Source: a virus (taxonomy: Duplodnaviria > Caudoviricetes). Taken from it: a stretch of 34,310 nucleotides of DNA. The position numbers were made by a program, and so were the translations under genes. Within the stretch, counting starts at the first letter, position 1. Every line of letters begins with the position of its first letter. Below are positions 154 to 21,770 of this stretch, piece by piece. Location: the IMG/VR virus record IMGVR_UViG_3300022916_000053, positions 1-34,310 of that record. The stretch is one strand, 5' to 3'. A model generated the notes under the pieces. It saw nothing but the letters and a program-made list of their open reading frames with translations, was not told where the DNA came from and did not search any database.

Positions 154-735
154 ATGCGCGGATCATGGCGGAATATCGTAGCGGTGTACGAGGCCGCGAG
201 TGAGGAGGAGAAGCGGGAGGGTGCCGAGTGGTATGGGAAAGCTAACAAGGTGGCGTACAAGATCGGCCATGAAGTTGACCCGTATTGCAACGGCCTAGTG
301 CCTGACGCTATCGACAAGATTAGGTGCGGGGCCGGGATACTCGCAGCACTAAGTCCTAGAATGCCATGGCCTAGGAATGTAGAGCTTGGAATGGCAGTGT
401 CCGAGGGTAAGGACATTAAAGCCCTTGGGATGTCAATACGCAAGGTCAAGAGAATCGTGGACGGCGAGGACCCTGGCGAGGTGGTCAAGGGGCCTAAAGA
501 GTTCGCATTCTTCCTGAATATAGCTTATGCAGGCCAGTGTGACGCGGTAACAATCGACACCCATGCCCTAGCCATATACATGGGGCGGAAGGTAAATAGT
601 AAAATGTATGGGAGGTTATCACGGAAGGGTGAATATGCTAGGATCGAGAGAGCTTACCAGCGAGCGGCTAAAGAGGTCGGGGTGCCGGTTAGCACAATGC
701 AGGCCACCACATGGGTGGCATGGAGGAACAAGTGA
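154..735 (+). CDS. Phage protein with helix-hairpin-helix DNA-glycosylase-like motifs (DUF7178-like)
   Basis: 193 aa, GGAG RBS. GAEWY, AALSPR, KGPK..AF and VTIDTH resemble the HhH hairpin (G.K) and catalytic vDtH of EndoIII-family glycosylases; ends MQATTW. Confidence 0.6.
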   Translation: MRGSWRNIVAVYEAASEEEKREGAEWYGKANKVAYKIGHEVDPYCNGLVPDAIDKIRCGAGILAALSPRMPWPRNVELGMAVSEGKDIKALGMSIRKVKRIVDGEDPGEVVKGPKEFAFFLNIAYAGQCDAVTIDTHALAIYMGRKVNSKMYGRLSRKGEYARIERAYQRAAKEVGVPVSTMQATTWVAWRNK

Positions 736-1076
736 CCAAGTACAAACCGATTTTCCTGAAGACACACGGCATGGGCGAGGCTCTGAAGGAGTATTTTGAA
801 TGCAGGGGCTACCATTTTCGCGGTGGGAATACCCCGGAGGACCACAAATTCCTTATCCTCGGGGCGTTTGATGAGAACCCCACCACGGAAATGGGTGCGT
901 CAGACGACCCCAGCCTGTGGAATGATGATGGGGGCAGGGTTGTAGGATTTGAGGAATTCTGCAAGGGTGTCCAGACGAAAGAGCCCGAGAAAATGATCAC
1001 CGTGAAGGGCAAGGAGTACAGCGAAGACAGCGTGGACATGATGATCCGGGCCTACGTTAACGGGAAGGGCGAATGA
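732..1076 (+). CDS. Hypothetical protein
   Basis: GTG at 732 overlaps the upstream TGA (GTGA); GGAGG RBS at 722-726. Confidence 0.7.
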   Translation: MTKYKPIFLKTHGMGEALKEYFECRGYHFRGGNTPEDHKFLILGAFDENPTTEMGASDDPSLWNDDGGRVVGFEEFCKGVQTKEPEKMITVKGKEYSEDSVDMMIRAYVNGKGE

Positions 1077-1387
1077 TGCCCCATATCCGCCGAGCATACA
1101 AGCTGTTCAGACAGCGCAAGGATGGCACACTAGGCCCGCTGTTTATAGGGGCGAGGCAGCGCGTACCTTTAGGGGAGTGGCTTGAGGCGGAGGACATACC
1201 TACTAAGGGCTACGCTCACCGGCCAGGGTGGCACAGTGGGCGTAGGCCTGAAGCCCCGCACCTGACGGAGAAAGGTAGGGTATGGTGCGAGGTCTGGATC
1301 AGAGACTACGAGAGTTACCGCCGGCCCGAGAGCCAGGGTGGTGAGTGGTTGATCTCTAAGTGGCTCAAGGTGGTGAGGGTTCTGTGA
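1073..1387 (+). CDS. Small phage protein resembling a domain of large polyvalent proteins (possible ART-like fold)
   Basis: AYKLFR...LGPLFI...VPLGEWLEAE...GYAHRPGWH...P.APHL...RVWCEV pattern recalled from phage proteins; ATGA-coupled to upstream gene. Fold assignment is inference. Confidence 0.55.
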   Translation: MMPHIRRAYKLFRQRKDGTLGPLFIGARQRVPLGEWLEAEDIPTKGYAHRPGWHSGRRPEAPHLTEKGRVWCEVWIRDYESYRRPESQGGEWLISKWLKVVRVL

Positions 1388-1974
1388 AGTATCTGCTAAG
1401 CAGGTATCAGTACCTACTGCTGAGGATGGCGCATGAGGGCAGGATCTTGGGCCTAGTGGTAGGCCCACGCCCTGCCGCTGAGATTTACGACATACCGGAA
1501 GGAGACATACCTGAGTGGTTGCCGGCAGTGTGTGCCAAGATGCCGGGGCCGCAGACTAACGAGACCCTGAGGCGTAGGCTGGAGCACATCGTCAAGGTGC
1601 TCGAACACAAGAATCTGCTCAAGCGCAAGTGGCTGGCGAGTAAGCCCACACGGACGCTCTCGTGGACGATAACCAACAAGGGGGTACGGTGGCTAGGGAA
1701 GGCCAAGAACTTTGCGTTAGGGAGGCGTGCGGCCCCCCTAAAGGGCACTATAACGCTACGCTGGAGGGCCTCCACGGTAGGTGGGAGGCAGAGATGGTAC
1801 TGTCCCGCACTGCTGGACTATGACTGGCAGGGGATCATTGAGAAGAAGACAGGGAGGTATCGCTGGCAGCTAACCAACCCTGAGGGAGTGTGTTCAGGGT
1901 GGATTGAGGCAGAAATACCTGGAATAGTGGGGGCCAAGGCGGAGGTCGAGGCCACATTTAGGAAGTACCTGTGA
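1384..1974 (+). CDS. Basic hypothetical protein, possible winged-helix N-terminal domain
   Basis: GTG at 1384 overlaps the upstream stop; 'LEHIVKVLEHKNLL...WTITNKG' resembles a wHTH wing; Arg/Lys-rich. Confidence 0.6.
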   Translation: MKYLLSRYQYLLLRMAHEGRILGLVVGPRPAAEIYDIPEGDIPEWLPAVCAKMPGPQTNETLRRRLEHIVKVLEHKNLLKRKWLASKPTRTLSWTITNKGVRWLGKAKNFALGRRAAPLKGTITLRWRASTVGGRQRWYCPALLDYDWQGIIEKKTGRYRWQLTNPEGVCSGWIEAEIPGIVGAKAEVEATFRKYL

Positions 1975-1983
1975 AGAAAATCC

Positions 1984-2013
1984 TTGACACCTCACAGAAA
2001 ATCTGTGTAACCT
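1984..2013 (+). promoter_or_regulatory. Sigma70-type promoter with a palindromic operator in its spacer
   Basis: TTGACA (1984-1989), 18-bp spacer, TAACCT (2008-2013) in an intergenic gap; spacer holds CACAGA-AAA-TCTGTG (1993-2007). Confidence 0.65.
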
Positions 2014-2069
2014 AGCGGGTGGTGGCAGGGAAAGAGAAGATAAGAACTAAGAAAGAAAGGTATTAGAGC

Positions 2070-2480
2070 ATGAGACACTGGCTGGGTGATCTAGCAATCT
2101 CATTGGCTGCAGTAGGCGTAGGGTTCCTGATCGGGTACGGTGTGGGCCAGCCCAAGACTGTCACTGAGATCAGGGTAGTGGATCGCATTGTATGTGAGCC
2201 CCACTACCTGTACAACGAGTACATACTTCATGGTGTGAAGCAGGGCGAGAGCCTGAGTAGCATTGCGGGCCACTACTATGGCGAGGCGGGTATGTGGCGT
2301 ATCATTGCCGGCGCTAATGAAGACGTAGTCACGGGTATCAATATGGTGTACCCTTACGAGGTGCTGCGCATCCCGGTGTGGGGCGCATGGCAGGAGGTAG
2401 AGGGGCCCGGCAGCGGTGTAATGGCCGACTCCCTGGCAACGGATGCCCACTTCGAGCAATACGATTGGGGGACACCATGA
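2070..2480 (+). CDS. Membrane-anchored LysM-domain protein
   Basis: N-terminal hydrophobic helix (LAISLAAVGVGFLIGYGVG) and LysM motif HGVKQGESLSSIAGHYYG...WRIIAGAN...VYPYEVLRIP. Confidence 0.8.
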   Translation: MRHWLGDLAISLAAVGVGFLIGYGVGQPKTVTEIRVVDRIVCEPHYLYNEYILHGVKQGESLSSIAGHYYGEAGMWRIIAGANEDVVTGINMVYPYEVLRIPVWGAWQEVEGPGSGVMADSLATDAHFEQYDWGTP

Positions 2481-3193
2481 CCGCCAACAAACTAGCCACC
2501 CTTCTTGTGCGTAAGCATGAGCTAGGCGGCAACGAACACTTAGCCGGGACACTGATCTGCGACAAGTGTGGGAAGCCGTGGAAGGAATGTAGCGGTGTGC
2601 GCGAAGCGTGGTTGTGTGACGAAATCATGCGACAAGCGGCTTGCCCGGCGGGAACAATCACTGGGCGCGACATCATAGCAGGAATGAAGATGGGCATAGT
2701 ATGCCCCGGCGGCTCCCCCACTATCGCTGTCGGCCTGAACCTCTACGCCCGAAAGCTGTGTGACGCGGCGATCAACGCACAACTCGTCCACGATCTAGCC
2801 GAGAACGAGAAGCAAGTGCGGGAGTGGTTGGGATACGAGAAGCTGACCGAGCAAGAAGCGGGTGCAGGGTTTGAGGTCAGAGACTACTTCGACCTGCTTT
2901 CTAGCAACCGTCAAGCAGCCCTGCTGGATCTAGCACATTGGGGGAATATCCAGAGCGGGAAGAAGCTGCGTCGATATATCCTTGACGCCATTCAATGCGA
3001 GATCCCCATCTCTAAGTCCGGAGCATACGAGTTGGCCGCGCAAGAGATCTTGTTTAAGGACGGGCTTAACGAAAGCAAGGGCCGCTCCGGCTGGTATGAC
3101 ATCAGCCCCACACGGGCCGAGGAACTAGCCAAGATCATAGAGACTGACGAACTGCCCGCAGGGGCAACACAAGGAGAGAGCAATGAACTGTGA
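2477..3193 (+). CDS. GH24/T4-type lysozyme-like protein with a Cys-rich insertion
   Basis: ATG 2477 (ATGA overlap). RKHE, CPGGSPTIAVGLNL, RQAALLDLA, AAQEIL, SGWY...TRAEELAKIIET follow the phage lysozyme order (HEG, C.AG..TIG.G.NL, RQ.AL.DM, AA.EML.S.W, RA..LA). Confidence 0.65.
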   Translation: MTANKLATLLVRKHELGGNEHLAGTLICDKCGKPWKECSGVREAWLCDEIMRQAACPAGTITGRDIIAGMKMGIVCPGGSPTIAVGLNLYARKLCDAAINAQLVHDLAENEKQVREWLGYEKLTEQEAGAGFEVRDYFDLLSSNRQAALLDLAHWGNIQSGKKLRRYILDAIQCEIPISKSGAYELAAQEILFKDGLNESKGRSGWYDISPTRAEELAKIIETDELPAGATQGESNEL

Positions 3194-3488
3194 ATCTAAA
3201 TTGAGCAAGATCAAGGACATCGTGTCCGACGAGGCAACTGGCGATCTCAGCATCGTTGTATTGCATCGTGGGTGGGTATTTGTCGGAGAACTATCAGATA
3301 GCAAGAGCGGAGGCTTGCGGCTAGGCAATGTCCGCAATGTCCGCAAATGGGATTCAGGGGGATTCGGTAGACTGACCCGTGGTGCCAAGTCTAGCGGTGC
3401 CGTTTTGGACGCCGCGCAGCCGATGGAGTTTTATGCGGACGCAATGATCTTCAGCGCTGCGTTGCCGGAGGGATGGGATAATGCCTAA
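3183..3488 (+). CDS. Small beta-rich phage protein (DUF6948-like, putative Sm/SH3-like barrel)
   Basis: IVVLHRGWVFVG...LRLGNVRNVRKW...GFGRL..G...VLD motif, recalled from phage proteins that precede Gly-X repeat ORFs; AGGAG RBS. Confidence 0.7.
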   Translation: MNCESKLSKIKDIVSDEATGDLSIVVLHRGWVFVGELSDSKSGGLRLGNVRNVRKWDSGGFGRLTRGAKSSGAVLDAAQPMEFYADAMIFSAALPEGWDNA

Positions 3489-3711
3489 CAATTATGGCTC
3501 TGGCGATGGCTATGGCTATGGCTTTGGCTATGGCTATGGCTATGGCTCTGGCGATGGCTTTGGCTATGGCTCTGGCTTTGGCTCTGGCTCTGGCTATGGC
3601 TATGGCTATAGCGATGGCTCTGGCTCTGGCTCTGGCTATGGCTTTGGCTTTGGCTCTGGCTATAGCGATGGCTATGGCTCTGGTGAACCGACACTTGCCA
3701 GGAACGATTAA
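3481..3711 (+). CDS. Gly-X (X = Y/S/F/D) low-complexity repeat protein
   Basis: 76 aa; ATG overlaps the upstream gene by 8 nt, GGAGG/GGGA upstream; residues ~5-68 alternate G with Y/S/F/D. Confidence 0.65.
   Translation: MPNNYGSGDGYGYGFGYGYGYGSGDGFGYGSGFGSGSGYGYGYSDGSGSGSGYGFGFGSGYSDGYGSGEPTLARND
3493..3684. repeat. Degenerate 6-bp tandem repeat (GGCTAT/GGCTCT/GGCTTT/GGCGAT), about 32 units
   Basis: Read directly; two units have AGC in place of GGC. Confidence 0.95.
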
Positions 3712-3735
3712 CCGCCCTCATGGGCAAAGGGGGAG

Positions 3736-3921
3736 GTGATGAGTGAGCCAAATGATGTTTGCCAAGACCGCGACCCGAACTTCAGGGGCCAGCGCGGGAA
3801 ATTATATCTCGTGCGGTGCTTTGCTTGCGAACCAAAGCGTGGGCGGGAGAATTACGGCCCATCTGTGGCATTAGGGGTATGTGTGTTCTGTGGCTGGAGC
3901 GAGGAGACCCAAGATGACTGA
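3736..3921 (+). CDS. Small zinc-finger protein
   Basis: CFAC...CVFCG; GGGGAGG upstream (start is GTG 3736 or a following ATG). Confidence 0.65.
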   Translation: MMSEPNDVCQDRDPNFRGQRGKLYLVRCFACEPKRGRENYGPSVALGVCVFCGWSEETQDD

Positions 3922-4141
3922 CACCGCAGGTGATTACCCGAAGCGCGAAGCGCAAGCTGATGGCGTTAGCCAGCAAGCCGTAAGTAGGGAAGAAGTGATT
4001 GCGTGGCTCAAGGGTGCAAACTGGGACGGCAAAGTCATGCCGATTATCCAAGCCACCCTAGACTTGCTTCAAGGTGAGCGGAGCGAACACATCTCCTGCC
4101 ATGACCCGAAGCAACTAGAAGGGGGAGCCGATGCTAAGTGA
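3914..4141 (+). CDS. Hypothetical protein
   Basis: ATG at 3914 (MTDTAG...) with GAGGAG RBS, overlapping the upstream gene end. Confidence 0.6.
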   Translation: MTDTAGDYPKREAQADGVSQQAVSREEVIAWLKGANWDGKVMPIIQATLDLLQGERSEHISCHDPKQLEGGADAK

Positions 4142-4550
4142 AGAACTGAAGGCCCTAGAGACCGAAACAAGAGAAGCAGAAAAGCTCACTCGGGAAGATG
4201 CCTTTGAGTGGCTGGATCAATCTGGGCCGAATGTTGGGATGCCGCCATACAGCCATCGCCACGTGCTAGCAATCATTCGGCTGATGCGTGACGGTGAGGC
4301 CGCAACCGCCGAACTAGACCGCCTAGCTGACCGCATCACCAAGCTAGAGGGAGCGATGCGCGCATGGTGGCTGTCTAAGCGGCCTGTCGCCTGGGGCGAA
4401 AAAGAACACCGCGATTCTCCGAATGTGAATCTAGTCACGGACACGGAAAAAGGCCTTGCCGCCGCACTAGAAGGGGACTGTGAGCCTACTGCTAATCTAG
4501 GCAAGGTTAGCAATAGCCTAGTAGTTGAACCCAAAGTTGAGGGGGAGTGA
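4131..4550 (+). CDS. Hypothetical helical protein
   Basis: 139 aa, GGGGGAG RBS, coupled to neighbours. Confidence 0.65.
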   Translation: MLSEELKALETETREAEKLTREDAFEWLDQSGPNVGMPPYSHRHVLAIIRLMRDGEAATAELDRLADRITKLEGAMRAWWLSKRPVAWGEKEHRDSPNVNLVTDTEKGLAAALEGDCEPTANLGKVSNSLVVEPKVEGE

Positions 4551-4723
4551 TGCGAGTAATCGAAGTCGAGAGGTGTGGAATAGACCATTGCCCACACTGC
4601 TTCCCGCACGAAACAGCACAGGGCGTGAACTACTGCCATGCTTATGAGACACCACCTGAGATCCATGCGGGAGTTAAAACATTCCCGCGAGTGTGCCCAC
4701 TACTCGCCAAAGACAGCGACTAA
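4550..4723 (+). CDS. Small Cys-rich protein (not in the ORF track)
   Basis: TGATG overlap; MRVIEVERCGIDHCPHCFPHETAQGVNYCHAYETPPEIHAGVKTFPRVCPLLAKDSD* (57 aa), C..CP..C...P..CPL pattern common in phage small proteins. Confidence 0.65.
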   Translation: MRVIEVERCGIDHCPHCFPHETAQGVNYCHAYETPPEIHAGVKTFPRVCPLLAKDSD

Positions 4724-4762
4724 ACCCTAACCCCGGCGACTAATCGCCAGAAGGGACGAAAC

Positions 4763-4945
4763 ATGAAACTAATCCTTATCACAATGGCCCTAGCCCTGCT
4801 AATGCCATGTGAAGCGCCGGAAGAACCTACCGCAAGCGATAGGGGGGACTCGATACTCCCTGAATTGATCGAGCCTTACATCTACTGCGGTGAGGGATAC
4901 TTAGAGCAGGGGCAGTCCTTTGGCTTTGCGTGGGGTGTGGAATGA
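4763..4945 (+). CDS. Small protein with signal-peptide-like N-terminus
   Basis: MKLILITMALALLMPC hydrophobic leader; AAGGGA RBS. Confidence 0.55.
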   Translation: MKLILITMALALLMPCEAPEEPTASDRGDSILPELIEPYIYCGEGYLEQGQSFGFAWGVE

Positions 4946-5031
4946 AACACTTCATTCGCACAGTAACATTTGCTCTGTGATTGTGCACAAATACCGAGGA
5001 AACACTTCAGCCTTAAAGAGAGGTATACAGT

Positions 5032-5241
5032 ATGTACGGTCCGAAGAATCACAAGTTTAGGTGGGATAGCGGATACGCCGAAGTCCCTGAGTGCGACCTG
5101 ATCCGCTCAGTTGAAATCGAACTAGCCCCGGATCTCCATGACCATGATGCCGAAGAGGTGCTGAGAGCCGTGATGCTGCTGATGGGCTTCAATGTCACGG
5201 ACAAGAACGGTGAGGAATGTCAGATGAGAAAGGAACCCTAA
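5032..5241 (+). CDS. Hypothetical protein
   Basis: 69 aa, GAGG RBS. Confidence 0.6.
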   Translation: MYGPKNHKFRWDSGYAEVPECDLIRSVEIELAPDLHDHDAEEVLRAVMLLMGFNVTDKNGEECQMRKEP

Positions 5242-5245
5242 GGGT

Positions 5246-5926
5246 ATGAAAAAAGACATAAATTTTCTGAAGGGCTTTGACGGGTCACACTTTTTAGAGA
5301 AGCGTGACTACCTTGGCTCGAGTGGCATAGGCCTGTGCATGCGCAAGGCCTGGTACAACGTGGCGTGGGCCAGGGGGTATGATGGGGTCATGGATCCCGA
5401 GGGCCCTGACCTCGAGTCCGTGTACAAGATGGGTGCCGGCAACGCCCTTGAGGGGTTGATCGTCAAGATGCTCGAGGCCTCTGGCTACAAGCTAGCCTTC
5501 ACAGGCGAGGGGCAGAACGTTGTCACCACTGATTGGGGGACTGAGGGCCACCCCGATGGCCTGATCATTGAAGACCCTGATGATGGGTGCGAGGGGTTCA
5601 TCCTCGAGGTGAAAACAACGGGGAGCCTCAAGTACGTCAGGGCTACGGGGCCGCCGGACTACCACCTGCACCAGACGGCTGACTACGTCTTCGGCAGTGG
5701 CGCTCCGGGCACCAAGTTCGTCTACCTGGAGCGGGGGTGGGGCAAGACCTCAACGATCATTGCCCACCGGCAGTTCCTCGAGCCGTACCGCGCGGAGAAT
5801 GAGAGGCGTGCCGGCGTGATCAACAAAGCCCTTGACACGGGTGATGTGAATGCGGTACCGTGCACACCACAGAGTTGGGAATGTAAAAGCTGCGGGTTTA
5901 GACATCAGTGCAGCGGGAAGGACTAA
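5246..5926 (+). CDS. Cas4-like PD-(D/E)XK exonuclease
   Basis: LGSSGIGLCMRKAWY, GHPDGLI, ILEVKT, HQTADY and C-terminal ECKSCGFRHQC (split 4-Cys Fe-S arrangement). Confidence 0.85.
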   Translation: MKKDINFLKGFDGSHFLEKRDYLGSSGIGLCMRKAWYNVAWARGYDGVMDPEGPDLESVYKMGAGNALEGLIVKMLEASGYKLAFTGEGQNVVTTDWGTEGHPDGLIIEDPDDGCEGFILEVKTTGSLKYVRATGPPDYHLHQTADYVFGSGAPGTKFVYLERGWGKTSTIIAHRQFLEPYRAENERRAGVINKALDTGDVNAVPCTPQSWECKSCGFRHQCSGKD

Positions 5927-5929
5927 CTC

Positions 5930-6136
5930 ATGGGACGAGTCAAGACCTGGGGCACATGCGATAAGTGCAGCGCAATGACGGTGCCACTAGGCAGACTGGG
6001 GCAGACGGGGCCTATCATAAAGGTAGTCTGCACGACATGTGGGACGGTTAACACTAGGAGGATCAGTGAAGAAGTACAAGACAGTAGGAGACCTCGAGCG
6101 CACGCTACGCGCACCACTCGAGTGCGGAGATATTAA
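5930..6136 (+). CDS. Small zinc-ribbon protein with basic tail
   Basis: CDKC...CTTCG; AAGGA RBS; the tail overlaps the next gene by 71 nt. Confidence 0.55.
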   Translation: MGRVKTWGTCDKCSAMTVPLGRLGQTGPIIKVVCTTCGTVNTRRISEEVQDSRRPRAHATRTTRVRRY

Positions 6137-6452
6137 GTGTGTGGTTCGGCGGCTCGATGAGGTGTTCGGCGCGGATGGGTGGAGTAGCAAGTATAGCGCT
6201 TGGCTCGATGAGAAGGACGGCCCAGGCCAGTCCATTATCTGTGAGCTTGAGTGCTATGTGTTCCTTCCCGAGGGGCCCGACTGGGGCAAGCACGGCCTGC
6301 ACAAGGTCACCAAAAGGGATGGGGCCGCGATGACAGGTGAGAAATATGCGTATGGTATCGAGGAAGCGTTCGACAAATCTTTGGCGCGTGCAGCAATGCA
6401 GCTTGGGATCAATAGCCAGGATGCTGCTCGGTGTAGAAAGACCGATGCATGA
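6066..6452 (+). CDS. Rad52/Rad22-family (Sak-like) single-strand annealing protein
   Basis: VVRRLDEVFGADGWS..Y, IICEL, VTKRDG, SLARAAMQLGI; GTG 6066 with AGGAGG RBS. Confidence 0.7.
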   Translation: MKKYKTVGDLERTLRAPLECGDIKCVVRRLDEVFGADGWSSKYSAWLDEKDGPGQSIICELECYVFLPEGPDWGKHGLHKVTKRDGAAMTGEKYAYGIEEAFDKSLARAAMQLGINSQDAARCRKTDA

Positions 6453-6984
6453 ACACGATGAACTGGACGAGCAACTCCTTGATGCGGACCTGTGGGAGAT
6501 GACTAGGATGCTGCAGCTAGGCAAGGTCAAGGTGGAGGTGCGCCCAACACCACTGCCTCGGGGCCCTCTTGAGGATGCCGGTAAGGTGTTCGGGGTGGGG
6601 GTGGAGTACCGCCCGTCCCCGTGCCCTATTTGCAATATGCGCCACTGGAATGATGAGGAAGCCGAGGCATGCTGTAACCCTGGGATACCTCTGCCGGCCA
6701 CAGTTATTGAACGTGTGGTGGAACTCATATGGCAGGGTGGGGGGCTGTACATGATCTGCAGTGGGCTAGGGTTTTGCGAGGAGAGGATCAAGCCCATCAC
6801 GGACATGGTAGATACCATCTATGCCAGAGAGCACGGGTTGTATGGTGCAGTCGGGAAACAGCGGGCCGTTAACGCCAGGGAGTCTAAGACCGTGACGATG
6901 TCCGGCAATCTGGGCAAGACATGGCCGCCTACCCGAGTACCACGCCATGAGGTAGAGAGGAGAGCGAGGATGATGTGCCTATGA
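6445..6984 (+). CDS. Hypothetical protein with CxxC/CC motif
   Basis: ATG 6445; CPICNMRHWNDEEAEACC motif. Confidence 0.6.
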   Translation: MHEHDELDEQLLDADLWEMTRMLQLGKVKVEVRPTPLPRGPLEDAGKVFGVGVEYRPSPCPICNMRHWNDEEAEACCNPGIPLPATVIERVVELIWQGGGLYMICSGLGFCEERIKPITDMVDTIYAREHGLYGAVGKQRAVNARESKTVTMSGNLGKTWPPTRVPRHEVERRARMMCL

Positions 6985-7514
6985 ATGTGCCCATAAGCAG
7001 AACCATCTACGTGGCGTGCGACCCAGGCAAGAATGTCTGTGCGTTCGCCTGTCACGACAGCGGGAAGCGGGGTAAGAACAAGTGGAGTATGTGGAAGATC
7101 GATATGCCCGAGAACTTTGGGGCACGGGCGGGAGCCGTCAGGGCATCACTCGAGGACCGCCTCAAGGCCGGTGCCCACGGTGTGTTTGTGGTGGAGGGCC
7201 AGTACGGTGGGCCGAACCAAGCCACTACCATCAGGCTGTCCAAAGTAGCCACCCTCGTCCAGTGTCAGGCCCTAGACGCTGGCTACACGCTGTTTAACAA
7301 TGGGCGAGTGAGCAAGAAGGGCCTCCCCGCCGAAGATGGTGAGGTTGCTGCCTCCACATGGCAGAGTTGGATGCGTGCCGGCGGTCAGACCGAGCGTGAT
7401 GACCGCAAGGCTATGGCTATGGGATATGCCCGTAAGCTGGTAGGCGTAGACCTCAACGACCAGGACATGGCTGACGCTGTGTGCATGGTAGATTGGATGA
7501 TGAAGAATGGATAG
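6975..7514 (+). CDS. RuvC-like Holliday junction resolvase
   Basis: YVACDPG (catalytic Asp), VFVVEGQY (Glu), W...K, DMADAVCM (C-terminal Asps). Confidence 0.8.
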   Translation: MPMNVPISRTIYVACDPGKNVCAFACHDSGKRGKNKWSMWKIDMPENFGARAGAVRASLEDRLKAGAHGVFVVEGQYGGPNQATTIRLSKVATLVQCQALDAGYTLFNNGRVSKKGLPAEDGEVAASTWQSWMRAGGQTERDDRKAMAMGYARKLVGVDLNDQDMADAVCMVDWMMKNG

Positions 7515-7677
7515 TCTGGATATAGATGCGGTGCGTGCCAAATTCCAGCCGGGAAGTATGATCTCCATAGACGAAGACACAGTATTCCTCATGGCTGGCT
7601 TGATCCTCAAGCTGTGCGACCAAATAGATAACCTCGAAGCAGAGGTTATTCACTACATGGAGTATGACAATGGCTAG
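7507..7677 (+). CDS. Small hypothetical protein (not in the ORF track)
   Basis: MDSLDIDAVRAKFQPGSMISIDEDTVFLMAGLILKLCDQIDNLEAEVIHYMEYDNG* fills the gap and overlaps both neighbours. Confidence 0.6.
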   Translation: MDSLDIDAVRAKFQPGSMISIDEDTVFLMAGLILKLCDQIDNLEAEVIHYMEYDNG

Positions 7678-8116
7678 CCTATGCCCTCACTGTCATCAAG
7701 TAATGCCCACTGATCCTAAGGTCGGTGACCAGAGCACGATCATCGAGGCTGTGAGCAAGGCGAGTGGCCGGAAGTACCGGGTAGGCGGGGCCAATGCCCG
7801 CAGTATCAATGCCAGGTTCCAAGAGGGTTATTACCTCAAGGATTTCCTCACCGTGATCGAGTACATGAGACAGAAGTGGAGCGGAGACCCTACTATGCAG
7901 AAGTATATCCGCCCCTCTACCCTCTTCAGGGCTTCTCACTTCGGTGAGTACCTGGCAGAGGCCGAGCAGTACGATGAAGAATGTAAAGGCCGTGCAAGGG
8001 TCAGGGTGCCGGCCAGTGCAGACGCACACAAAAAGCCCTTGACCGACGAAGAGAACTTGGATAGACTCCAGGCACTCAAACAATCGATTGGAGATAGCAA
8101 TGGCTACACTAAATGA
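7664..8116 (+). CDS. Replication initiator-like protein with conserved phage C-terminal domain (Phg_2220_C-like)
   Basis: INARFQEGY..KDF..VI....KW..DP.M.KYIRPSTLF...F..YL signature; N-terminal CPHC; start may be 7670. Confidence 0.75.
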   Translation: MTMASLCPHCHQVMPTDPKVGDQSTIIEAVSKASGRKYRVGGANARSINARFQEGYYLKDFLTVIEYMRQKWSGDPTMQKYIRPSTLFRASHFGEYLAEAEQYDEECKGRARVRVPASADAHKKPLTDEENLDRLQALKQSIGDSNGYTK

Positions 8117-8420
8117 CTTCTTCCCCTCACCCTGGATGAAGGGGGACGACTTTGCTGAGCCCGTGGTGGCCACCCTGAAGTCGGTATCCCCGGAGCAGTT
8201 CGAGGGGGATGGCGGCGAAATGGAGACCAAGGCCGTGGCCCGGTTTGAAGAGACCGCCAAGGCACTGATTCTCAACAAGACCAACTTCCAGATGTTGGCC
8301 TCCATCACAGGGGAGCAAGACACCGACAACTGGACGGGTATCCAGGTCACCTTGCGTGCCGAGAAGGTTGCAGCCTTTGGTAAGGTGCATAATGCAGTCC
8401 GGGTGTACCCGGTAAGCTAG
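8100..8420 (+). CDS. Putative OB-fold ssDNA-binding protein
   Basis: FPSPWMK..D, LILNKTN, DTDNWTG..VTL, AFGK...AVRV; GGAG RBS before ATG 8100; sits in the recombination/replication module. Confidence 0.6.
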   Translation: MATLNDFFPSPWMKGDDFAEPVVATLKSVSPEQFEGDGGEMETKAVARFEETAKALILNKTNFQMLASITGEQDTDNWTGIQVTLRAEKVAAFGKVHNAVRVYPVS

Positions 8421-8421
8421 T

Positions 8422-8493
8422 GGTGTGGGGTGCAGGGGGTACTGCAACACCTTTGGAGCCGGTTGCCCGATACCGGTCCTGCATAATCGGGCG
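8422..8493 (+). ncRNA. Structured RNA: bulged hairpin plus candidate H-type pseudoknot
   Basis: GGTGT 8422-26/ACACC 8447-51 and TGCAG 8431-35/CTGCA 8442-46; stem CCGGT 8459-63/ACCGG 8472-76 whose loop GCCCGAT complements ATCGGGC 8486-92. Confidence 0.5.
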
Positions 8494-8496
8494 CAT

Positions 8497-8585
8497 GCGC
8501 GGGTATCTCAATTGGCAGAGTCCTGAGCCAGGGACTGGTCACTGGTTATATCGGGAGGTTGGCGGTTCGAGTCCGTCCCCGCGCT
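8497..8585 (+). tRNA. tRNA-like RNA with non-canonical, extended anticodon arm (no assignable anticodon)
   Basis: Acceptor GCGCGGG/CCCGCGC; T8A9; D arm CTC-AATTGGCA-GAG; stem CCTGA/TCGGG enclosing 24 nt; variable loop AGGTT; T arm GGCGG-TTCGAGT-CCGTC; discriminator T followed by CCG rather than CCA. Confidence 0.8.
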
Positions 8586-8587
8586 CC

Positions 8588-8653
8588 GCAGCATAGTGCT
8601 GCATGAAACAGGGGTGTATTCCCTGCGGTCCATGCAGATTGTACACCCTTCAT
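8588..8653 (+). ncRNA. Structured RNA 3' of the tRNA-like element (candidate pseudoknot or alternative hairpins)
   Basis: CTGCATG 8599-8605/CATGCAG 8631-37; GGGTGTA 8612-18/TACACCC 8642-48; also GCAGCA/TGCTGC and CAGGG/CCCTG stems. Confidence 0.5.
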
Positions 8654-8716
8654 AGCCTACGTTGAGGGCTTAGTCACCCGGAGTAGGCAAGGGATAGTAG
8701 GCCAGTTATAGAAGTC

Positions 8717-8763
8717 ATCCGGGGTAGGGGGGTAACCCTGGCAACCTGCCCCGGATCTTTCTT
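8717..8763 (+). terminator. Probable intrinsic terminator or attenuator hairpin
   Basis: 12-bp stem ATCCGGGGTAGG/CCTGCCCCGGAT (one G-U) followed by a weak U tract CTTTCTT. Confidence 0.5.
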
Positions 8764-8777
8764 CCACAGGAGGGCGT

Positions 8778-9026
8778 ATGGATTTTGACATCAAAGAGTT
8801 TGAGATCAAGATGGTGCCCAGGCACGGGCCGCCTATGGTGACCAAGAAGAAGGTGATGCCACTGTACCCACTACGCCAGGAGGATCTCCGAACTTATCTC
8901 ACCAAGGAGGCGGAGAAAATCAAGGAGCACCTGCACAACATGGGAAAGGACATCGACCTGCAGCAGAGACAGGGCGAGATCTTCGACCAGACGGCGCGAT
9001 GCGACCAGGAGGTACGGGATGGCTAA
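8778..9026 (+). CDS. Hypothetical protein
   Basis: 82 aa, AGGAGG RBS. Confidence 0.7.
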   Translation: MDFDIKEFEIKMVPRHGPPMVTKKKVMPLYPLRQEDLRTYLTKEAEKIKEHLHNMGKDIDLQQRQGEIFDQTARCDQEVRDG

Positions 9027-9270
9027 CCGACTCCGCAAAACACGCCTAAGGCTAATCGGGTGGCTTGCTGGTGATATGTATGTTGGGATCAACCTGGGGA
9101 TAGCGGGACCAGTGGATGAAGGCGGGCTGTTCATTGCGAATGGCAGCGACAACGGACTGCTGAGAAGCTGCTTGTTCGCCAACCATCCAAGGTTTAAGAT
9201 AGGCACTGTGCCGGAGATACTGGAGTTTGCACGTGAGGAGGCACGGGATGAGCCTGGACAAGATAGTTGA
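9019..9270 (+). CDS. Hypothetical protein
   Basis: 83 aa, GGAGG RBS, overlaps upstream stop. Confidence 0.6.
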   Translation: MANRLRKTRLRLIGWLAGDMYVGINLGIAGPVDEGGLFIANGSDNGLLRSCLFANHPRFKIGTVPEILEFAREEARDEPGQDS

Positions 9271-9451
9271 GGGGCAGGAGCGTAACATGGAACGTGCGAT
9301 GGTGCGCTACCGTGCAAAACGCACACGTAGACTCGCTATAAGGGCCTTTTGTGTACACTGCATGGGTGGAGACCTGCCTGGGGTCAAAACATGCCCCTCA
9401 AAAGGGTGTGCTTTGTGGCGTTATCGCATGGGTGCGGAGGTAAAGGTATGA
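9248..9451 (+). CDS. Small Cys4 zinc-binding protein
   Basis: AIRAFCVHCMGG....VKTCPSKGCALWRYRMG, a recurrent phage motif; GAGGAGG RBS before ATG 9248. Confidence 0.7.
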   Translation: MSLDKIVEGQERNMERAMVRYRAKRTRRLAIRAFCVHCMGGDLPGVKTCPSKGCALWRYRMGAEVKV

Positions 9452-9678
9452 GTATGGACCCTTTAGCATATAAGGTGATACCAGGGCTTGCCGACCCCCT
9501 AAGCCAGAGGTCGGTCTGCACGTTATATGCGCGGGTAGACATTGCTGGGGCCGAAACTAAAATAGAGCTTGAAAGTGTGACCATTACAGATCTTGTCACA
9601 TCCATAAGCGACCCGGCACTCCTGGAGGCACTGCGTGTAATGGCAGAGTCTGTGCTGGGGAGGTTTGGCAGTGACTGA
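9448..9678 (+). CDS. Hypothetical protein
   Basis: ATGA overlap with the upstream stop (MSMDPLAYK...), GGAGG RBS. Confidence 0.6.
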   Translation: MSMDPLAYKVIPGLADPLSQRSVCTLYARVDIAGAETKIELESVTITDLVTSISDPALLEALRVMAESVLGRFGSD

Positions 9679-10987
9679 CAACACCCACTACAGCCAGGAA
9701 GCCGAAGAGGCGGTGATCTACTCAGCCATGAGTGATGCTGCCCAGGCGGCTGACCTCACCCGGCAACTGTCTCGTAGGGATCTGTTTGTCCATGAGCACG
9801 TCATTATCTGGGGTGCCATTGAGGACATGGTCCGGCGGGGTACACCCGTGGATGTGGTCACGCTCACCAATGAGCTGCAGCTAGCAGGCCTACTGGTCAA
9901 GGCCGGCGGTGCCTCACGCATTGGCAGCCTGTACGACAGACCGGTGCTCACCAAGAATGCGTCAGAATATGCTGACATTGTGGTCAATGCCGCTCAGCGC
10001 AGGCGCCTCAGGAAGGCATGCGAGGGCATCCTCACCGCCTGCTCAGGGCCCGAAAAGATATCCAAGGTACTGGGGGATGCCGAAGAGGCTATTATGGCCG
10101 TAGGGAGGACGGGAGAGGCTACCAGCAAGCCTGAGATACTGGGTCGGACCATCACCGCCAGCTTCGATGTCATCCAGAAGAGGATGGAGGCCGGCACATC
10201 CTTCACCGGACTGCAGACAGGGTACGGATTGCTGGACCATATAACGGGTGGGTTCCAGCCCGGCAACCTGATCCTGCTAGCGGCCCGCCCATCCATGGGC
10301 AAGACCGCACTGGCTCTGAATATAGCAAGCAATGCGTGCCTAAACTCAGATGCGCGAATAGCTTTCTTCAGCCTGGAGATGAGTAGAGATGAAGTCACCC
10401 ACCGTATCTTGTCTTCCGAGGCCCTGGTTGATAGCTCCAAGCTGAGGTCGGGGCTCCTGAATACCACCGATTGGGAACTTCTTGGCGAGGCCACATCGTC
10501 CCTGGCCGGAGCCGATCTCTTCATTGACGAGACAGGGGGCCTCAGCCATGGGGAACTGCGCTCACGGTGTCACGGTCTTACTATTGACAAGCCACTGGAC
10601 CTCGTTATCGTGGACTACATCCAGCTAATGCGTATGCCGTCAGGTCACCAGAACAGGAACATCGAGGTGGGTGTGATCAGTGCCGCTCTCAAAGGGCTGG
10701 CCAAGGAACTCAAGTGCCCCATCCTGGCACTCAGCCAGCTATCCAGGGCCGCCGCATCCACCGATACAACAGCGCGTCCTGCCCTCCACCACCTGAGAGA
10801 CTCAGGCAGCTTAGAGCAGGACGCAGATATAGTCATGTTCATGCACAGGCCCGAGATGATGGGCGCTCAGGACCGTGAAGGTATGGCCGAACTGATCATA
10901 GCCAAGCATCGTAATGGTGCGCTAGATACTATCGACCTCAGGTTCATGCACCAGTACACCAAGTTCGTTGACCCACCATCATTCTAG
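9671..10987 (+). CDS. dnaB: Replicative DNA helicase DnaB
   Basis: EAEEAVI N-domain, Walker A LAARPSMGKTA, FSLEM, Walker B VIVDYIQL, LKGLAKEL, LSQLSR, LRDSGSLEQDADIV, IIAKHRNG; GTG 9671 with GGGGAGG RBS. Confidence 0.97.
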   Translation: MTDNTHYSQEAEEAVIYSAMSDAAQAADLTRQLSRRDLFVHEHVIIWGAIEDMVRRGTPVDVVTLTNELQLAGLLVKAGGASRIGSLYDRPVLTKNASEYADIVVNAAQRRRLRKACEGILTACSGPEKISKVLGDAEEAIMAVGRTGEATSKPEILGRTITASFDVIQKRMEAGTSFTGLQTGYGLLDHITGGFQPGNLILLAARPSMGKTALALNIASNACLNSDARIAFFSLEMSRDEVTHRILSSEALVDSSKLRSGLLNTTDWELLGEATSSLAGADLFIDETGGLSHGELRSRCHGLTIDKPLDLVIVDYIQLMRMPSGHQNRNIEVGVISAALKGLAKELKCPILALSQLSRAAASTDTTARPALHHLRDSGSLEQDADIVMFMHRPEMMGAQDREGMAELIIAKHRNGALDTIDLRFMHQYTKFVDPPSF

Positions 10988-20164: not shown

Positions 20165-21265
20165 CTATCTGTAGGGAACGCCATGGGTCTCATAGGTTGG
20201 TGCTGCTGAATACCTGTTGAACAGGTCATCCCACTGCTTCTGCTGCTGGTAGTAACCAGCCGTCTGGCCTAACTGGCCCAGAAGGTTCTGCGTACCCTGG
20301 TTCATATACTGCTGGTTCTGGTAGTTTAGCTGATCCTGGGCCTGCTGCAGTACAGCATTCTGATAGCCCATGCCAGCGACCTGCCCCATCTGGGCAAGAC
20401 CCATAGAGGCCGACTGGTTAGCGTGGCCCTCCAGCATCTGGATCAACGACATCTTGTACGACTTGTCAAGCTGCTTGATGTTAGATACAAACCCCTGGAC
20501 CATGTTCTCGGCCTCAGTCGATGACTCAGCTAAGTTCTGAGTGATCTCATTCTGGACCGTGCCGCCCGTACCCACACCACGCCGTGCCGCATCAGCCTGT
20601 GCGTAGTTGTACTGGTTCTGAGCGGCCTGGGTAAGCGTATTGCGATAGGCCTGCTCACTCTCCTGGTAGTCCGTTGGGTTATACAGGGAGTTGATCCCGC
20701 CAGCATCGATCTCAGCCTGAAGCTCCCGAAGGCCAGCTAGCTGAGCCTCAAGGTCACGGCGCTGCTCGACATCCAACTGCTCATGGTTAGAGATGGAGCC
20801 ACCGTAAGGGTCGTATGTGCCACCAGGGCCAGAATACACCCCACCAGCTTCATTGTAGGCCTGTAACGCCTCCCATCGTGCTTGTTCTTCAGGGGTTTCG
20901 GCCTTTGGCGAAGCATACCCAGGGCCTTGCACTTCAGCCAGAGGATCATATCCCAAGGTGTCAAGGATGTCTTGGATTTCATTGCCTCGCCCCGTGGGAG
21001 CGCGGCCGTACAAGGTATCTAGCTGAGCCTCGTTCCAGTAGTCCCGGTAGTAATCGGACTGGGACGTATTAGGAACAAACACTGTCGAGTTCGACAGGGG
21101 GTTGAAGATGCTAGACCCTTGAGGGGTGTAGGTGCTAGGCTGCTGAAAAGTCGGTGCCTGCTGAGGCTTGAACGCATCAAACAGCCCCAGCCCCAAGCCA
21201 CCAATTTGTGCGGCTGCTGCGGGGTTTGATCCAATCCAGCTAGCTACCGGAGCCGCGAATCCCAT
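20165..21265 (-). CDS. Putative internal virion/DNA pilot protein
   Basis: Gly/Ala hydrophobic N-terminus, AARRG motif, Gln/Asn-rich C-terminus; AAGGAGG RBS. Confidence 0.65.
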   Translation of the reverse strand: MGFAAPVASWIGSNPAAAAQIGGLGLGLFDAFKPQQAPTFQQPSTYTPQGSSIFNPLSNSTVFVPNTSQSDYYRDYWNEAQLDTLYGRAPTGRGNEIQDILDTLGYDPLAEVQGPGYASPKAETPEEQARWEALQAYNEAGGVYSGPGGTYDPYGGSISNHEQLDVEQRRDLEAQLAGLRELQAEIDAGGINSLYNPTDYQESEQAYRNTLTQAAQNQYNYAQADAARRGVGTGGTVQNEITQNLAESSTEAENMVQGFVSNIKQLDKSYKMSLIQMLEGHANQSASMGLAQMGQVAGMGYQNAVLQQAQDQLNYQNQQYMNQGTQNLLGQLGQTAGYYQQQKQWDDLFNRYSAAPTYETHGVPYR

Positions 21266-21770
21266 GGTAATCCTCCTTGGTCAAACCAAACAGCCAGACA
21301 TCTTCTGGCCTACCACAAAAGGATGCGCCTGACCGAACACAGCCTTCACGCTGGAATCCCAGCCGCCTTACCAACCTCACCGCCGCCTTCCTACTCTTAG
21401 GGATCGGGGCGGTAATACGCCGGACACCCAAGGACTCAAAGCAATACTCCGCCAAGTCCCCCCACACAGCCATCTTGCCTGCCGTGTTGATGTCCCTCAC
21501 CGGGGTCTTACTAAGACTTTCTGGCCTCATAAACCGCCTGAACGGCTTAGACAGCATGATGTGGATACTGGCCGTTGCCCCAGGAACAATGTCACTGAGC
21601 CAAACCAACCCCACATTTCGCCTACCTGCATGTAGCCAGAAGAACTGACTCGCACCGGCTATCATGTCCCACACAGCCCCATGGCCTGCCAACTCATCAG
21701 GCAGCAGACCGTAAGAATCAAGTACCCCCGACAACTGCTCCCCGCTTAGCTCTGCCCGTGCCAAACGCAT
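21240..21770 (-). CDS. GNAT-family (RimJ/RimL-like) acetyltransferase
   Basis: YCFESLGVRRITA.IP....AAVRLVRRLGFQREG.VR...DVWLFGL; occupies the usual podovirus position after the nozzle gene. Confidence 0.8.
   Translation of the reverse strand: MRLARAELSGEQLSGVLDSYGLLPDELAGHGAVWDMIAGASQFFWLHAGRRNVGLVWLSDIVPGATASIHIMLSKPFRRFMRPESLSKTPVRDINTAGKMAVWGDLAEYCFESLGVRRITAPIPKSRKAAVRLVRRLGFQREGCVRSGASFCGRPEDVWLFGLTKEDYHGIRGSGS

What the first reader, a model, noticed from the sequence alone, without database searches (positions are those of the whole stretch)
8497..8587. tRNA-like RNA with glycine acceptor identity but a hairpin in place of the anticodon loop
Seen: perfect 7-bp acceptor stem, canonical D loop (GG) and T loop (TTCGAGT), AGGTT variable loop and a 5-bp anticodon stem (CCTGA/TCGGG). 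That stem encloses 24 nt (GCCAGGGACTGGTCACTGGTTATA) that fold into a further stem (GCCAG/CTGGT, GAC/GTC) with a TATA bulge; there is no U33 or 7-nt loop, and the D-arm junction is one base short. Established: G1:C72, C2:G71, G3:C70 and U73 are the bacterial tRNA-Gly acceptor identity elements, and all are present. Inference: elbow and acceptor are intact while the decoding end is rebuilt into paired structure, which suggests a non-decoding tRNA mimic (decoy for anticodon nucleases, synthetase/EF-Tu/T-box ligand, non-ribosomal glycine carrier or RNase P/Z processing signal) rather than random decay.
Basis: partly seen in the sequence, partly recalled or inferred. Interest (0 to 1): 0.8.

Follow-up and report, generated by a model that had tools for sequence, protein, structure and literature searches.

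The report
Anticodon-less tRNA look-alike in marine phage
A 44-kb seawater phage carries one small gene with the intact upper body of a tRNA, likely descended from a glycine tRNA, but a 34-base hairpin where the codon-reading loop should be, so it cannot read codons in the normal way and most likely marks a site where the host's tRNA-trimming enzymes would cut the phage's replication message, though a decaying relic is not excluded.

Summary
Mostly confirmed. 8497-8585 is a tRNA body (Rfam tRNA 35.1 bits, cut-off 29) with 7/7 acceptor, T arm, D-loop GG and U73, the only tRNA-like gene of a complete 43,851-bp phage. Corrections: GAC/GTC cannot form (2-nt loop), U10·U25 is a mismatch, and the extra pairing is no better than shuffles (512 of 2000). 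No single excision gives a U33 loop, whereas 87 of 110 prokaryotic controls pass, so it is not a spliced tRNA. Glycine ancestry is plausible, but C35/C36 are absent from any anticodon loop. Pattern scans found 62 such look-alikes (54 clusters); their acceptor identity varies while helices and the A-2/U-1 leader persist. No homolog of this arm was found, so covariation is untested; its Rfam score is below 19 of 20 look-alikes. Best reading (0.40): an RNase P cut signal inside the replication operon. Rivals: relic 0.28, free decoy 0.22. The scan found this class before on other DNA; T4 RNA C and plant t-elements are printed precedents.

The parts
8497..8585 (+). tRNA-shaped RNA gene, position 1 to discriminator U73 (89 nt)
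8495..8496 (+). A-2 U-1 leader in front of G+1, the commonest bacterial RNase P context; predicted cut between 8496 and 8497
   Evidence: sequence; PMC11143913 passages; enrichment in look-alikes. Cut itself untested
8497..8503 (+). acceptor stem 5' strand, G1 C2 G3
8506..8521 (+). D arm: 3-bp stem plus U10·U25 mismatch, loop with A14, A15, G18, G19, A21; no base 26 follows
   Evidence: L210/L217 has G10 and A26 in the same body
8522..8555 (+). 34-nt arm in place of the 17-nt anticodon arm: 5-bp stem, 5-bp GCCAG/CTGGT extension, 10-nt apical loop, 4-nt TATA bulge; includes a 7-nt near-tandem duplication 8534-8547
8556..8577 (+). variable loop AGGTT and canonical T arm
8578..8588 (+). acceptor 3' strand, U73, then CC-G (CCA not encoded)
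8421..8777 (+). 357-nt gap, the largest in the co-directional gene run 154-10987, that holds the element
   Evidence: fold z -2.53
8586..8777 (+). run of four predicted hairpins between the element and the next ribosome-binding site; role unknown, link to the element inferred only from position
   Evidence: z -3.31, 1 of 200 shuffles; sub-hairpins chosen after the fact; no Rfam family
7664..8420 (+). upstream genes: replication-initiator-like protein (Phg_2220_C) and a 106-aa protein of unknown function (phrog_21613)
8778..10987 (+). downstream block: four short ORFs without family and a DnaB helicase

Best explanation
This is a tRNA-shaped gene, likely descended from a glycine tRNA, that has no anticodon loop and is likely kept for its shape: it would be transcribed as part of the phage's replication message, where host RNase P and a 3'-trimming nuclease are predicted to cut it out and so split that message between the initiator block and the DnaB block. 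Shown: the intact acceptor/T helix, T loop, D-loop GG and A-2 U-1 G+1; the lack of any excision that restores a U33 loop; the solitary position inside a co-directional gene run with no promoter-like site of its own. Inferred: transcription, folding into the L shape, cleavage, CCA addition, and any benefit to the phage. The 34-nt arm would then only need to stay closed at its base.
For: RNase P reads the T stem-loop, the 12-bp acceptor/T helix and N-1/N-2, and cuts a model substrate made of acceptor stem, T stem and T loop alone, as well as mRNAs and phage RNAs such as C4 and M3 (PMC11143913, passages); all these parts are intact here. Plant t-elements with the same GGTTCRANYCC motif mark mapped mRNA ends (PMC1920247, abstract and section 35). 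The element is the only tRNA-like gene in the complete genome and lies in the largest gap of a same-strand run; the nearest + strand promoter-like site is a weak 9/12 match at 8039-8067, before the upstream gene, and no + strand terminator-like site was found in 7400-9700. Class level: 62 look-alikes in 54 clusters keep U-1 (29 of 54) and A-2 (27 of 54) against about 22-23% background, like ordinary tRNAs (126 and 130 of 237); only 9 of 54 encode CCA; discriminators vary (A22 U16 C11 G5). In a 9-member family all 63 acceptor pairs hold while four positions switch pair type and the discriminator is A, U or G. 32 of 48 with context have no other tRNA in their locus and no shared partner gene appears among 124 neighbours.
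Against: No RNA data and no homolog of this element, so nothing shows selection on it. RNase P does not need the D arm or a closed anticodon-type stem, yet both are kept, which fits a free mimic or a young relic as well. The A-2/U-1 leader may simply be inherited from the parent tRNA gene. Acceptor pairing in the families is partly circular, because elements were kept only with at least 6 of 7 pairs. CCA is not encoded and U73 is not the purine of the RCCA contact. Two look-alike families keep conserved motifs inside the arm, which a mere cut signal would not need. Only 1 of 105 distant DnaB loci holds a similar body, so this is no general feature of replication modules.
Confidence: 0.4

Rival explanations
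1. A decaying tRNA-Gly gene: an insertion and a 7-nt slippage duplication destroyed the anticodon loop, and the rest has not yet eroded. Any RNase P cutting would be a side effect.
For: Arm pairing at chance level (512 of 2000); near-tandem ACTGGT repeat; U10·U25 and loss of base 26 where the nearest look-alike has G10 and A26; Rfam 35.1 bits is below 19 of 20 look-alikes tested (40.6-56.5; the twentieth, L084, fell under the cut-off of 29, a set biased by the search patterns); no homolog of the arm in six pattern scans.
Against: Acceptor 7 of 7, T stem 5 of 5, 27-31 stem 5 of 5 and every invariant elbow base are intact although the arm has changed beyond recognition; no letter differs in the contigs of 8 runs laid (only one bridges the whole element, and the runs may be one population); the same split between kept body and replaced arm recurs in 54 clusters, and 48 of 62 arms fold better than their shuffles on average (11 of 62 at p<0.05).
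Confidence: 0.28
2. The excised RNA is the working product: a stable, uncharged or poorly charged tRNA mimic that binds host proteins reading the elbow and acceptor (tRNA-targeting defence nucleases or toxins, stringent-response or T-box sensors, processing enzymes) and cannot be cut in an anticodon loop.
For: The whole L-shaped body is kept, more than RNase P needs. T4 makes the stable RNAs C and D from its tRNA region, function unknown (PMC3014915 and PMC9697503, passages); RNA C has a canonical T arm and hairpins in place of the lower half. Two look-alike families keep conserved arm motifs.
Against: Anticodon nucleases such as PrrC read the anticodon stem-loop (PMC3014915, passage), which is the part that is gone. 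No own promoter-like site, no encoded CCA, no RtcB in the complete genome, no PADLOC match among 13 proteins tested.
Confidence: 0.22
3. A dedicated non-ribosomal glycine carrier charged by host GlyRS.
For: G1-C72, C2-G71, G3-C70 and U73 are the listed bacterial acceptor determinants (PMC9976931, Table 1 passage); the set is Gly-specific in my sample, 3 of 3 among 314.
Against: C35 and C36 belong to the same identity set and no anticodon loop presents them. An irregular U73 tRNA tested by Mukai et al. was not charged by E. coli GlyRS (PMC5389517, passage). Only 3 of 54 clusters carry the set; the nearest look-alike has U1-A72 G2-C71 C3-G70. No glycyl-transferase gene was recognised in the genome.
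Confidence: 0.05
4. A pre-tRNA whose 17 extra bases are spliced out to give a working tRNA.
For: The first four loop bases pair with the 3' side (GCCA/TGGT) next to a bulge, loosely like a bulge-helix-bulge; 43 of 138 intact viral elements in my scans do look like spliced tRNAs (10 with a full helix motif, 33 excisable at 37/38); Lak phages have tRNA introns (10.1101/356790, passages).
Against: 0 of all single excisions of 15-18 nt give U33, against 87 of 110 intact prokaryotic controls. The closest product has C33, anticodon CAG and no long variable arm. The 3' bulge has 4 nt, not 3, and no second helix forms. The host is bacterial (DnaB, holin) and the genome has no RtcB.
Confidence: 0.04

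Closest known systems
t-elements of plant mitochondria (Forner et al. 2007, PMC1920247; abstract and section 35 read)
   Same: tRNA-like fold with the GGTTCRANYCC T-arm motif, no decoding, placed between genes of a longer transcript where RNase P and RNase Z can cut.
   Different: Organelle elements with mapped ends; this one is in a bacteriophage, keeps a near-complete D arm and a lengthened anticodon-type arm, and has no mapped ends.
Phage T4 RNA C and RNA D (rnaC, rnaD; NC_000866 70908-71171; PMC3014915, PMC9697503, passages)
   Same: Phage small RNA gene; RNA C has a canonical T arm next to an acceptor-like stem and hairpins instead of an anticodon loop; function unknown.
   Different: RNA C is 139 nt, lies in a tRNA cluster and is a proven stable late RNA; no sequence match to T4; this element is 89 nt, solitary, with a recognisable D arm.
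Bacterial tRNA-Gly
   Same: G1-C72, C2-G71, G3-C70, U73; best body match among 314 ordinary tRNAs is a phage tRNA-Gly(TCC) with the same D loop.
   Different: No 7-nt loop, U33, C35 or C36; U10·U25; no base 26.
Irregular tRNAs, E-loop tRNAs and allo-tRNAs (Mukai et al. 2017, PMC5389517, passages)
   Same: Natural tRNA-shaped RNAs with extra elements, some not used in translation.
   Different: Those keep an anticodon loop and often have 8/4 or 9/3 helices; this one is 7/5 with no anticodon loop.
'Enigmatic' tRNA introns of Lak megaphages (Devoto et al., bioRxiv 10.1101/356790, passages)
   Same: Phage tRNA genes longer than normal because of an insert.
   Different: Lak genes give a recognisable anticodon once the insert is removed and have insert-free relatives; here no excision works.

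Membership tests
Decoding tRNA-Gly | Acceptor determinants G1-C72, C2-G71, G3-C70, U73 | tested here: met
Decoding tRNA-Gly | 7-nt anticodon loop with U33, C35, C36 | tested here: not met
Decoding tRNA-Gly | Glycylation by GlyRS | not testable with these tools
   needs an assay
Intron-containing tRNA (archaeal/eukaryal type) | One excision restores a 5-bp stem and 7-nt loop with U33 and purine 37 | tested here: not met
   none; 87 of 110 intact prokaryotic controls pass
Intron-containing tRNA (archaeal/eukaryal type) | Bulge-helix-bulge (3-4-3) at the junctions | tested here: not met
   4-nt 3' bulge and no second helix, read from the fold
Self-splicing intron in tRNA | Insert long enough for a group I/II core, or Rfam match | tested here: not met
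   17 extra nt; no such Rfam hit
t-element (works-like comparison; the family is organellar) | T-arm motif GGTTCRANYCC within an acceptor-like stem | tested here: met
   against PMC1920247 section 35
t-element (works-like comparison; the family is organellar) | Lies inside a longer transcript between genes | tested here: inconclusive
   same-strand run, no own promoter-like site or terminator-like site; transcript not observed
t-element (works-like comparison; the family is organellar) | mRNA ends map to its ends by RNase P / RNase Z cleavage | not testable with these tools
   needs RNA end mapping
T4 RNA C-type RNAs | T arm and acceptor-like stem with hairpins in place of the anticodon loop | tested here: met
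T4 RNA C-type RNAs | Sequence homology to rnaC and place in a tRNA cluster | tested here: not met
   no T4 hit; only tRNA-like gene in the genome
T4 RNA C-type RNAs | Accumulates as a stable small RNA in infection | not testable with these tools
   needs RNA from infected cells
tmRNA tRNA-like domain | G3·U70 acceptor and a tag-coding domain | tested here: not met
   G3-C70; no tmRNA call; features recalled
allo-tRNA (8/4, 9/3) | Acceptor/T helix of 8/4 or 9/3 | tested here: not met
   7/5; definition from PMC5389517 abstract
Y RNA / YrlA | Match to the Rfam model | tested here: not met
   no such hit listed up to E 10 (one overlapping same-clan match was left out by the tool)

The most novel reading that the evidence does not exclude
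It belongs to a widespread, undescribed class of phage RNAs that use the tRNA elbow and acceptor as a self-excising scaffold for a swappable arm; this member is released by RNase P, given CCA and glycine, and serves as an uncleavable decoy for glycine-tRNA-specific host toxins, which read U73 and G71 (both present; determinants from PMC9976931).
Probability: 0.1. Interest if true: 0.75.

Novelty: new variant of a known kind. Interest (0 to 1): 0.42.

Why it matters
Phage tRNA genes are usually explained as supplying decoding capacity or replacing tRNAs cut by host defences. Genes that keep the body and drop the anticodon cannot do that. Partial scans gave 54 distinct clusters, often alone in small phages, so they are common and mostly mis-annotated or missed. 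If host RNase P cuts them out of early messages, phages use tRNA punctuation as organelles do; if the released RNA is a decoy, it is a new counter-defence class, and the old question of what T4 RNA C does gets simple test cases. This single element is a weak representative: no homolog, no covariation, some wear. The multi-member families seen on the way are better substrates.

Tried and rejected
Long flanking stem 8423-8446 with 8609-8638 as an RNase III-type processing stem: seen in one fold, gone in another; flank duplex -46.4 against -45.5 +/- 5.1, 397 of 1000 shuffles as good; rejected. H-type pseudoknot 8458-8492: 43 of 2000 shuffles with limits set after the fact, and 22 such sites in the window; unsupported. 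A family defined by CTGGTCA in the arm (shared with L003): 54 stretches, mostly ordinary D loops, no family. Antisense target of the arm, as for P1 C4 or P4 CI (recalled): longest exact match elsewhere 10 nt, no outstanding duplex (the duplex scan covered the window only). attP/integration relic: no second copy and no integrase recognised (one weak recombinase zinc-ribbon hit below cut-off). Partner gene: none shared among 124 neighbours, RNA ligase 2 times; RtcB absent. Close relatives: upstream protein 1 of 1 locus is the phage itself; DnaB at most 39-41% (the latter stopped at 45 of 64 parts); capsid at most 30%; no DNA match in plasmids, only T-arm matches in phages. A 70%-identical DnaB exists on a 44,209-bp contig but its DNA could not be read. 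Expression: no RNA holder listed. Population variants: none in contigs of 8 runs, cover patchy. One search had an indexing error in my script; its class counts were discarded and redone. L003 and six metagenome or viral hits outside the script's pattern are not in the counts. Literature: 8 searches (listings and abstract starts) showed no paper that describes full-bodied anticodon-less phage tRNA look-alikes as a class; passages of PMC4810235, PMC7609411 and PMC10690425 did not either. Supplements were not read; the 10,006-RNA table of PMC10690425 and Figure S6 of PMC5389517 may hold members.

Full report
Context. The window is 34,310 bp of a virus record, part of a complete 43,851-bp genome with direct terminal repeats (G001). 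It encodes a capsid protein, SU10-type adaptor, holin, tail spikes, Cas4-like exonuclease, RuvC-like resolvase, replication initiator and DnaB; the missing part adds terminase and connector. It is a phage of a bacterial host. Twelve seawater or marine DNA runs hold it, seven with half the words or more (possibly one campaign). The element lies in a 357-nt gap, the largest in a same-strand run from 154 to 10987, and is the only tRNA-like gene.

Observation. The body is as described: 7/7 acceptor, U8 A9, G18 G19, A15-U48, 5/5 T stem, TTCGAGT, U73. Rfam gives 35.1 bits (cut-off 29); 0 of 200 shuffled windows hold such a body. It is identical in the second record and bridged unchanged by one contig. 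Corrections: GAC/GTC would need a 2-nt loop; U10·U25 is a mismatch; the end reads U-C-C-G; the insert holds a 7-nt near-duplication. The extension is not more paired than chance (512 of 2000).

Is it spliced? I removed every contiguous stretch that leaves a 17- or 18-nt arm and asked for a stem of at least 4 pairs, U33 and purine 37. No product passes. Of 115 distinct elements from the prokaryote-genome scan (118 stretches, mostly archaeal), 5 had broken bodies; of the 110 left, 87 pass, 13 have a normal loop plus a long arm, and 10 fail. The test therefore works, and the element fails it. The genome has no RtcB (0 of 1; control 10 of 14).

Is it glycine-specific? Among 314 ARAGORN-called tRNAs in the fetched loci (a few are mis-called look-alikes), all 3 with G1C2G3/C70G71C72 and U73 are Gly, though only 3 of 14 Gly tRNAs have the full set; the best body match is a tRNA-Gly(TCC). 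Glycine ancestry is thus likely. C35 and C36 are also determinants (PMC9976931, passages), and an irregular U73 tRNA was not charged by E. coli GlyRS (PMC5389517, passage).

Relatives. No homolog of the arm was found. Six pattern scans gave 5, 120 (about 580 estimated; 14 of 64 parts read), 54 and 40 viral stretches, 10 metagenome and 118 genome stretches. Of 145 distinct viral elements 138 have intact bodies: 27 have a normal loop plus long arm, 52 are excisable, 59 (this one included) are not; 3 of 5 metagenome elements are not. 'Not excisable' is a mechanical class and may mix origins. These 62 form 54 clusters. The nearest body, L210/L217, is 72% alike over 94 nt (inflated by the search pattern); it has G10 and A26, a shifted acceptor without the Gly set, U73, and an unrelated 39-nt arm. 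In two families (9 and 4 members) all 63 and 28 acceptor pairs hold while pair types and discriminator change, and short arm motifs are conserved (partly circular). Across clusters U-1 is 29 of 54 and A-2 27 of 54, like ordinary tRNAs (126 and 130 of 237). 32 of 48 with context are solitary. No partner gene recurs. Against this element: it scores below 19 of 20 look-alikes on the Rfam model. A phage with 70%-identical DnaB exists but could not be read, so the decisive comparison is open.

Mechanism. What is kept is what RNase P reads: T stem-loop, 12-bp helix, U-1/A-2, G+1 (PMC11143913, passages). With no own promoter-like site and no + strand terminator-like site nearby (sigma-70 consensus only), the element would be part of the replication message, and processing would sever the initiator block from the DnaB block, as t-elements do in plant mitochondria (PMC1920247, section 35). 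I commit to this at 0.40; all steps after the sequence are inferred. A relic (0.28) is the main rival, given chance-level pairing, the duplication and the worn D stem. A free decoy (0.22) fits the full L shape and T4 RNA C. Glycine carrier 0.05, spliced tRNA 0.04.

Novelty. It works like a t-element or T4 RNA C but is a member of neither. Eight literature searches showed no description of this class; supplements were not read. The scan has met the class before on other DNA and has no note like this sequence. Verdict: new variant of a known kind, interest 0.42; the class is worth pursuing, this member is not its best example.

Noticed in passing
window 8586-8777 (+): Four consecutive predicted hairpins (z -3.31); the last, 8717-8756, is followed by CTTTCTT just before the ribosome-binding site of ORF 8778 and could be an attenuator or weak terminator for the DnaB block. 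No Rfam family.
   Followed up: partly
window 8458-8492 (+): Possible H-type pseudoknot (6 bp + 7 bp) four bases upstream of the element; not significant after the fact.
   Followed up: partly
window 3481-3711 (+): 76-aa ORF made of Gly-Tyr/Ser/Phe repeats on a hexamer repeat array.
   Followed up: no
L035, L037, L048, L060, L063, L084, L089, L114, L122 (around 1192 or 292): Family of anticodon-less look-alikes with conserved GATA and TGAAT motifs in a 36-37-nt arm, possibly pseudoknotted, and a freely varying acceptor; a better test case than the window's element.
   Followed up: partly
L006, L007, L047, L218: Second family: arm with conserved ACCCGGG followed by a GNRA-capped hairpin.
   Followed up: partly
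L012, L014, L015, L041, L054, L056, L066, L121 and bacterial L269, L286, L342, L353, L377: tRNAs with a TAT anticodon loop and a long variable arm capped by a GAT(T/A)A-type loop, in phages, Melainabacteria/Obscuribacter and Dehalococcoidia; may relate to the UAU allo-tRNAs of PMC5389517, not tested.
   Followed up: no
L242, L246 (around 2491): Phage tRNA-Thr(TGT) genes with a 26-28-nt hairpin insert in the anticodon loop that is excisable and has a helix-bulge motif.
   Followed up: no
L144 816-892, L150 1481-1558 (L157, L173 called alike): tRNA genes with an 11-nt loop or 7-bp anticodon stem showing TCA, called SeC by ARAGORN but with a short variable loop.
   Followed up: no
L008, L018, L023, L043, L098, L118 and others: Many viral tRNA-Tyr(GTA) and Lys(TTT) genes with eukaryote-type introns at 37/38, several from giant-virus records.
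   Followed up: no
L212/L214 1486-1582: Look-alike with encoded CCA, a TTGACA box upstream and a terminator-like hairpin downstream, on a 309-kb metagenome contig; looks like a stand-alone cellular gene.
   Followed up: no
L003 1485-1577; L450 6231-6331: Further solitary look-alikes in small phages; L003 shares the D loop and an ACTGGTCA octamer in the arm with the window's element, probably chance.
   Followed up: partly
window 9665-10987 (P0004, P0123): A related phage with 70%-identical DnaB is on record on a 44,209-bp contig; its DNA is the missing comparison.
   Followed up: partly
window 21240-21770 (-): GNAT acetyltransferase-like gene inside the virion module; no link to the element seen.
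   Followed up: no
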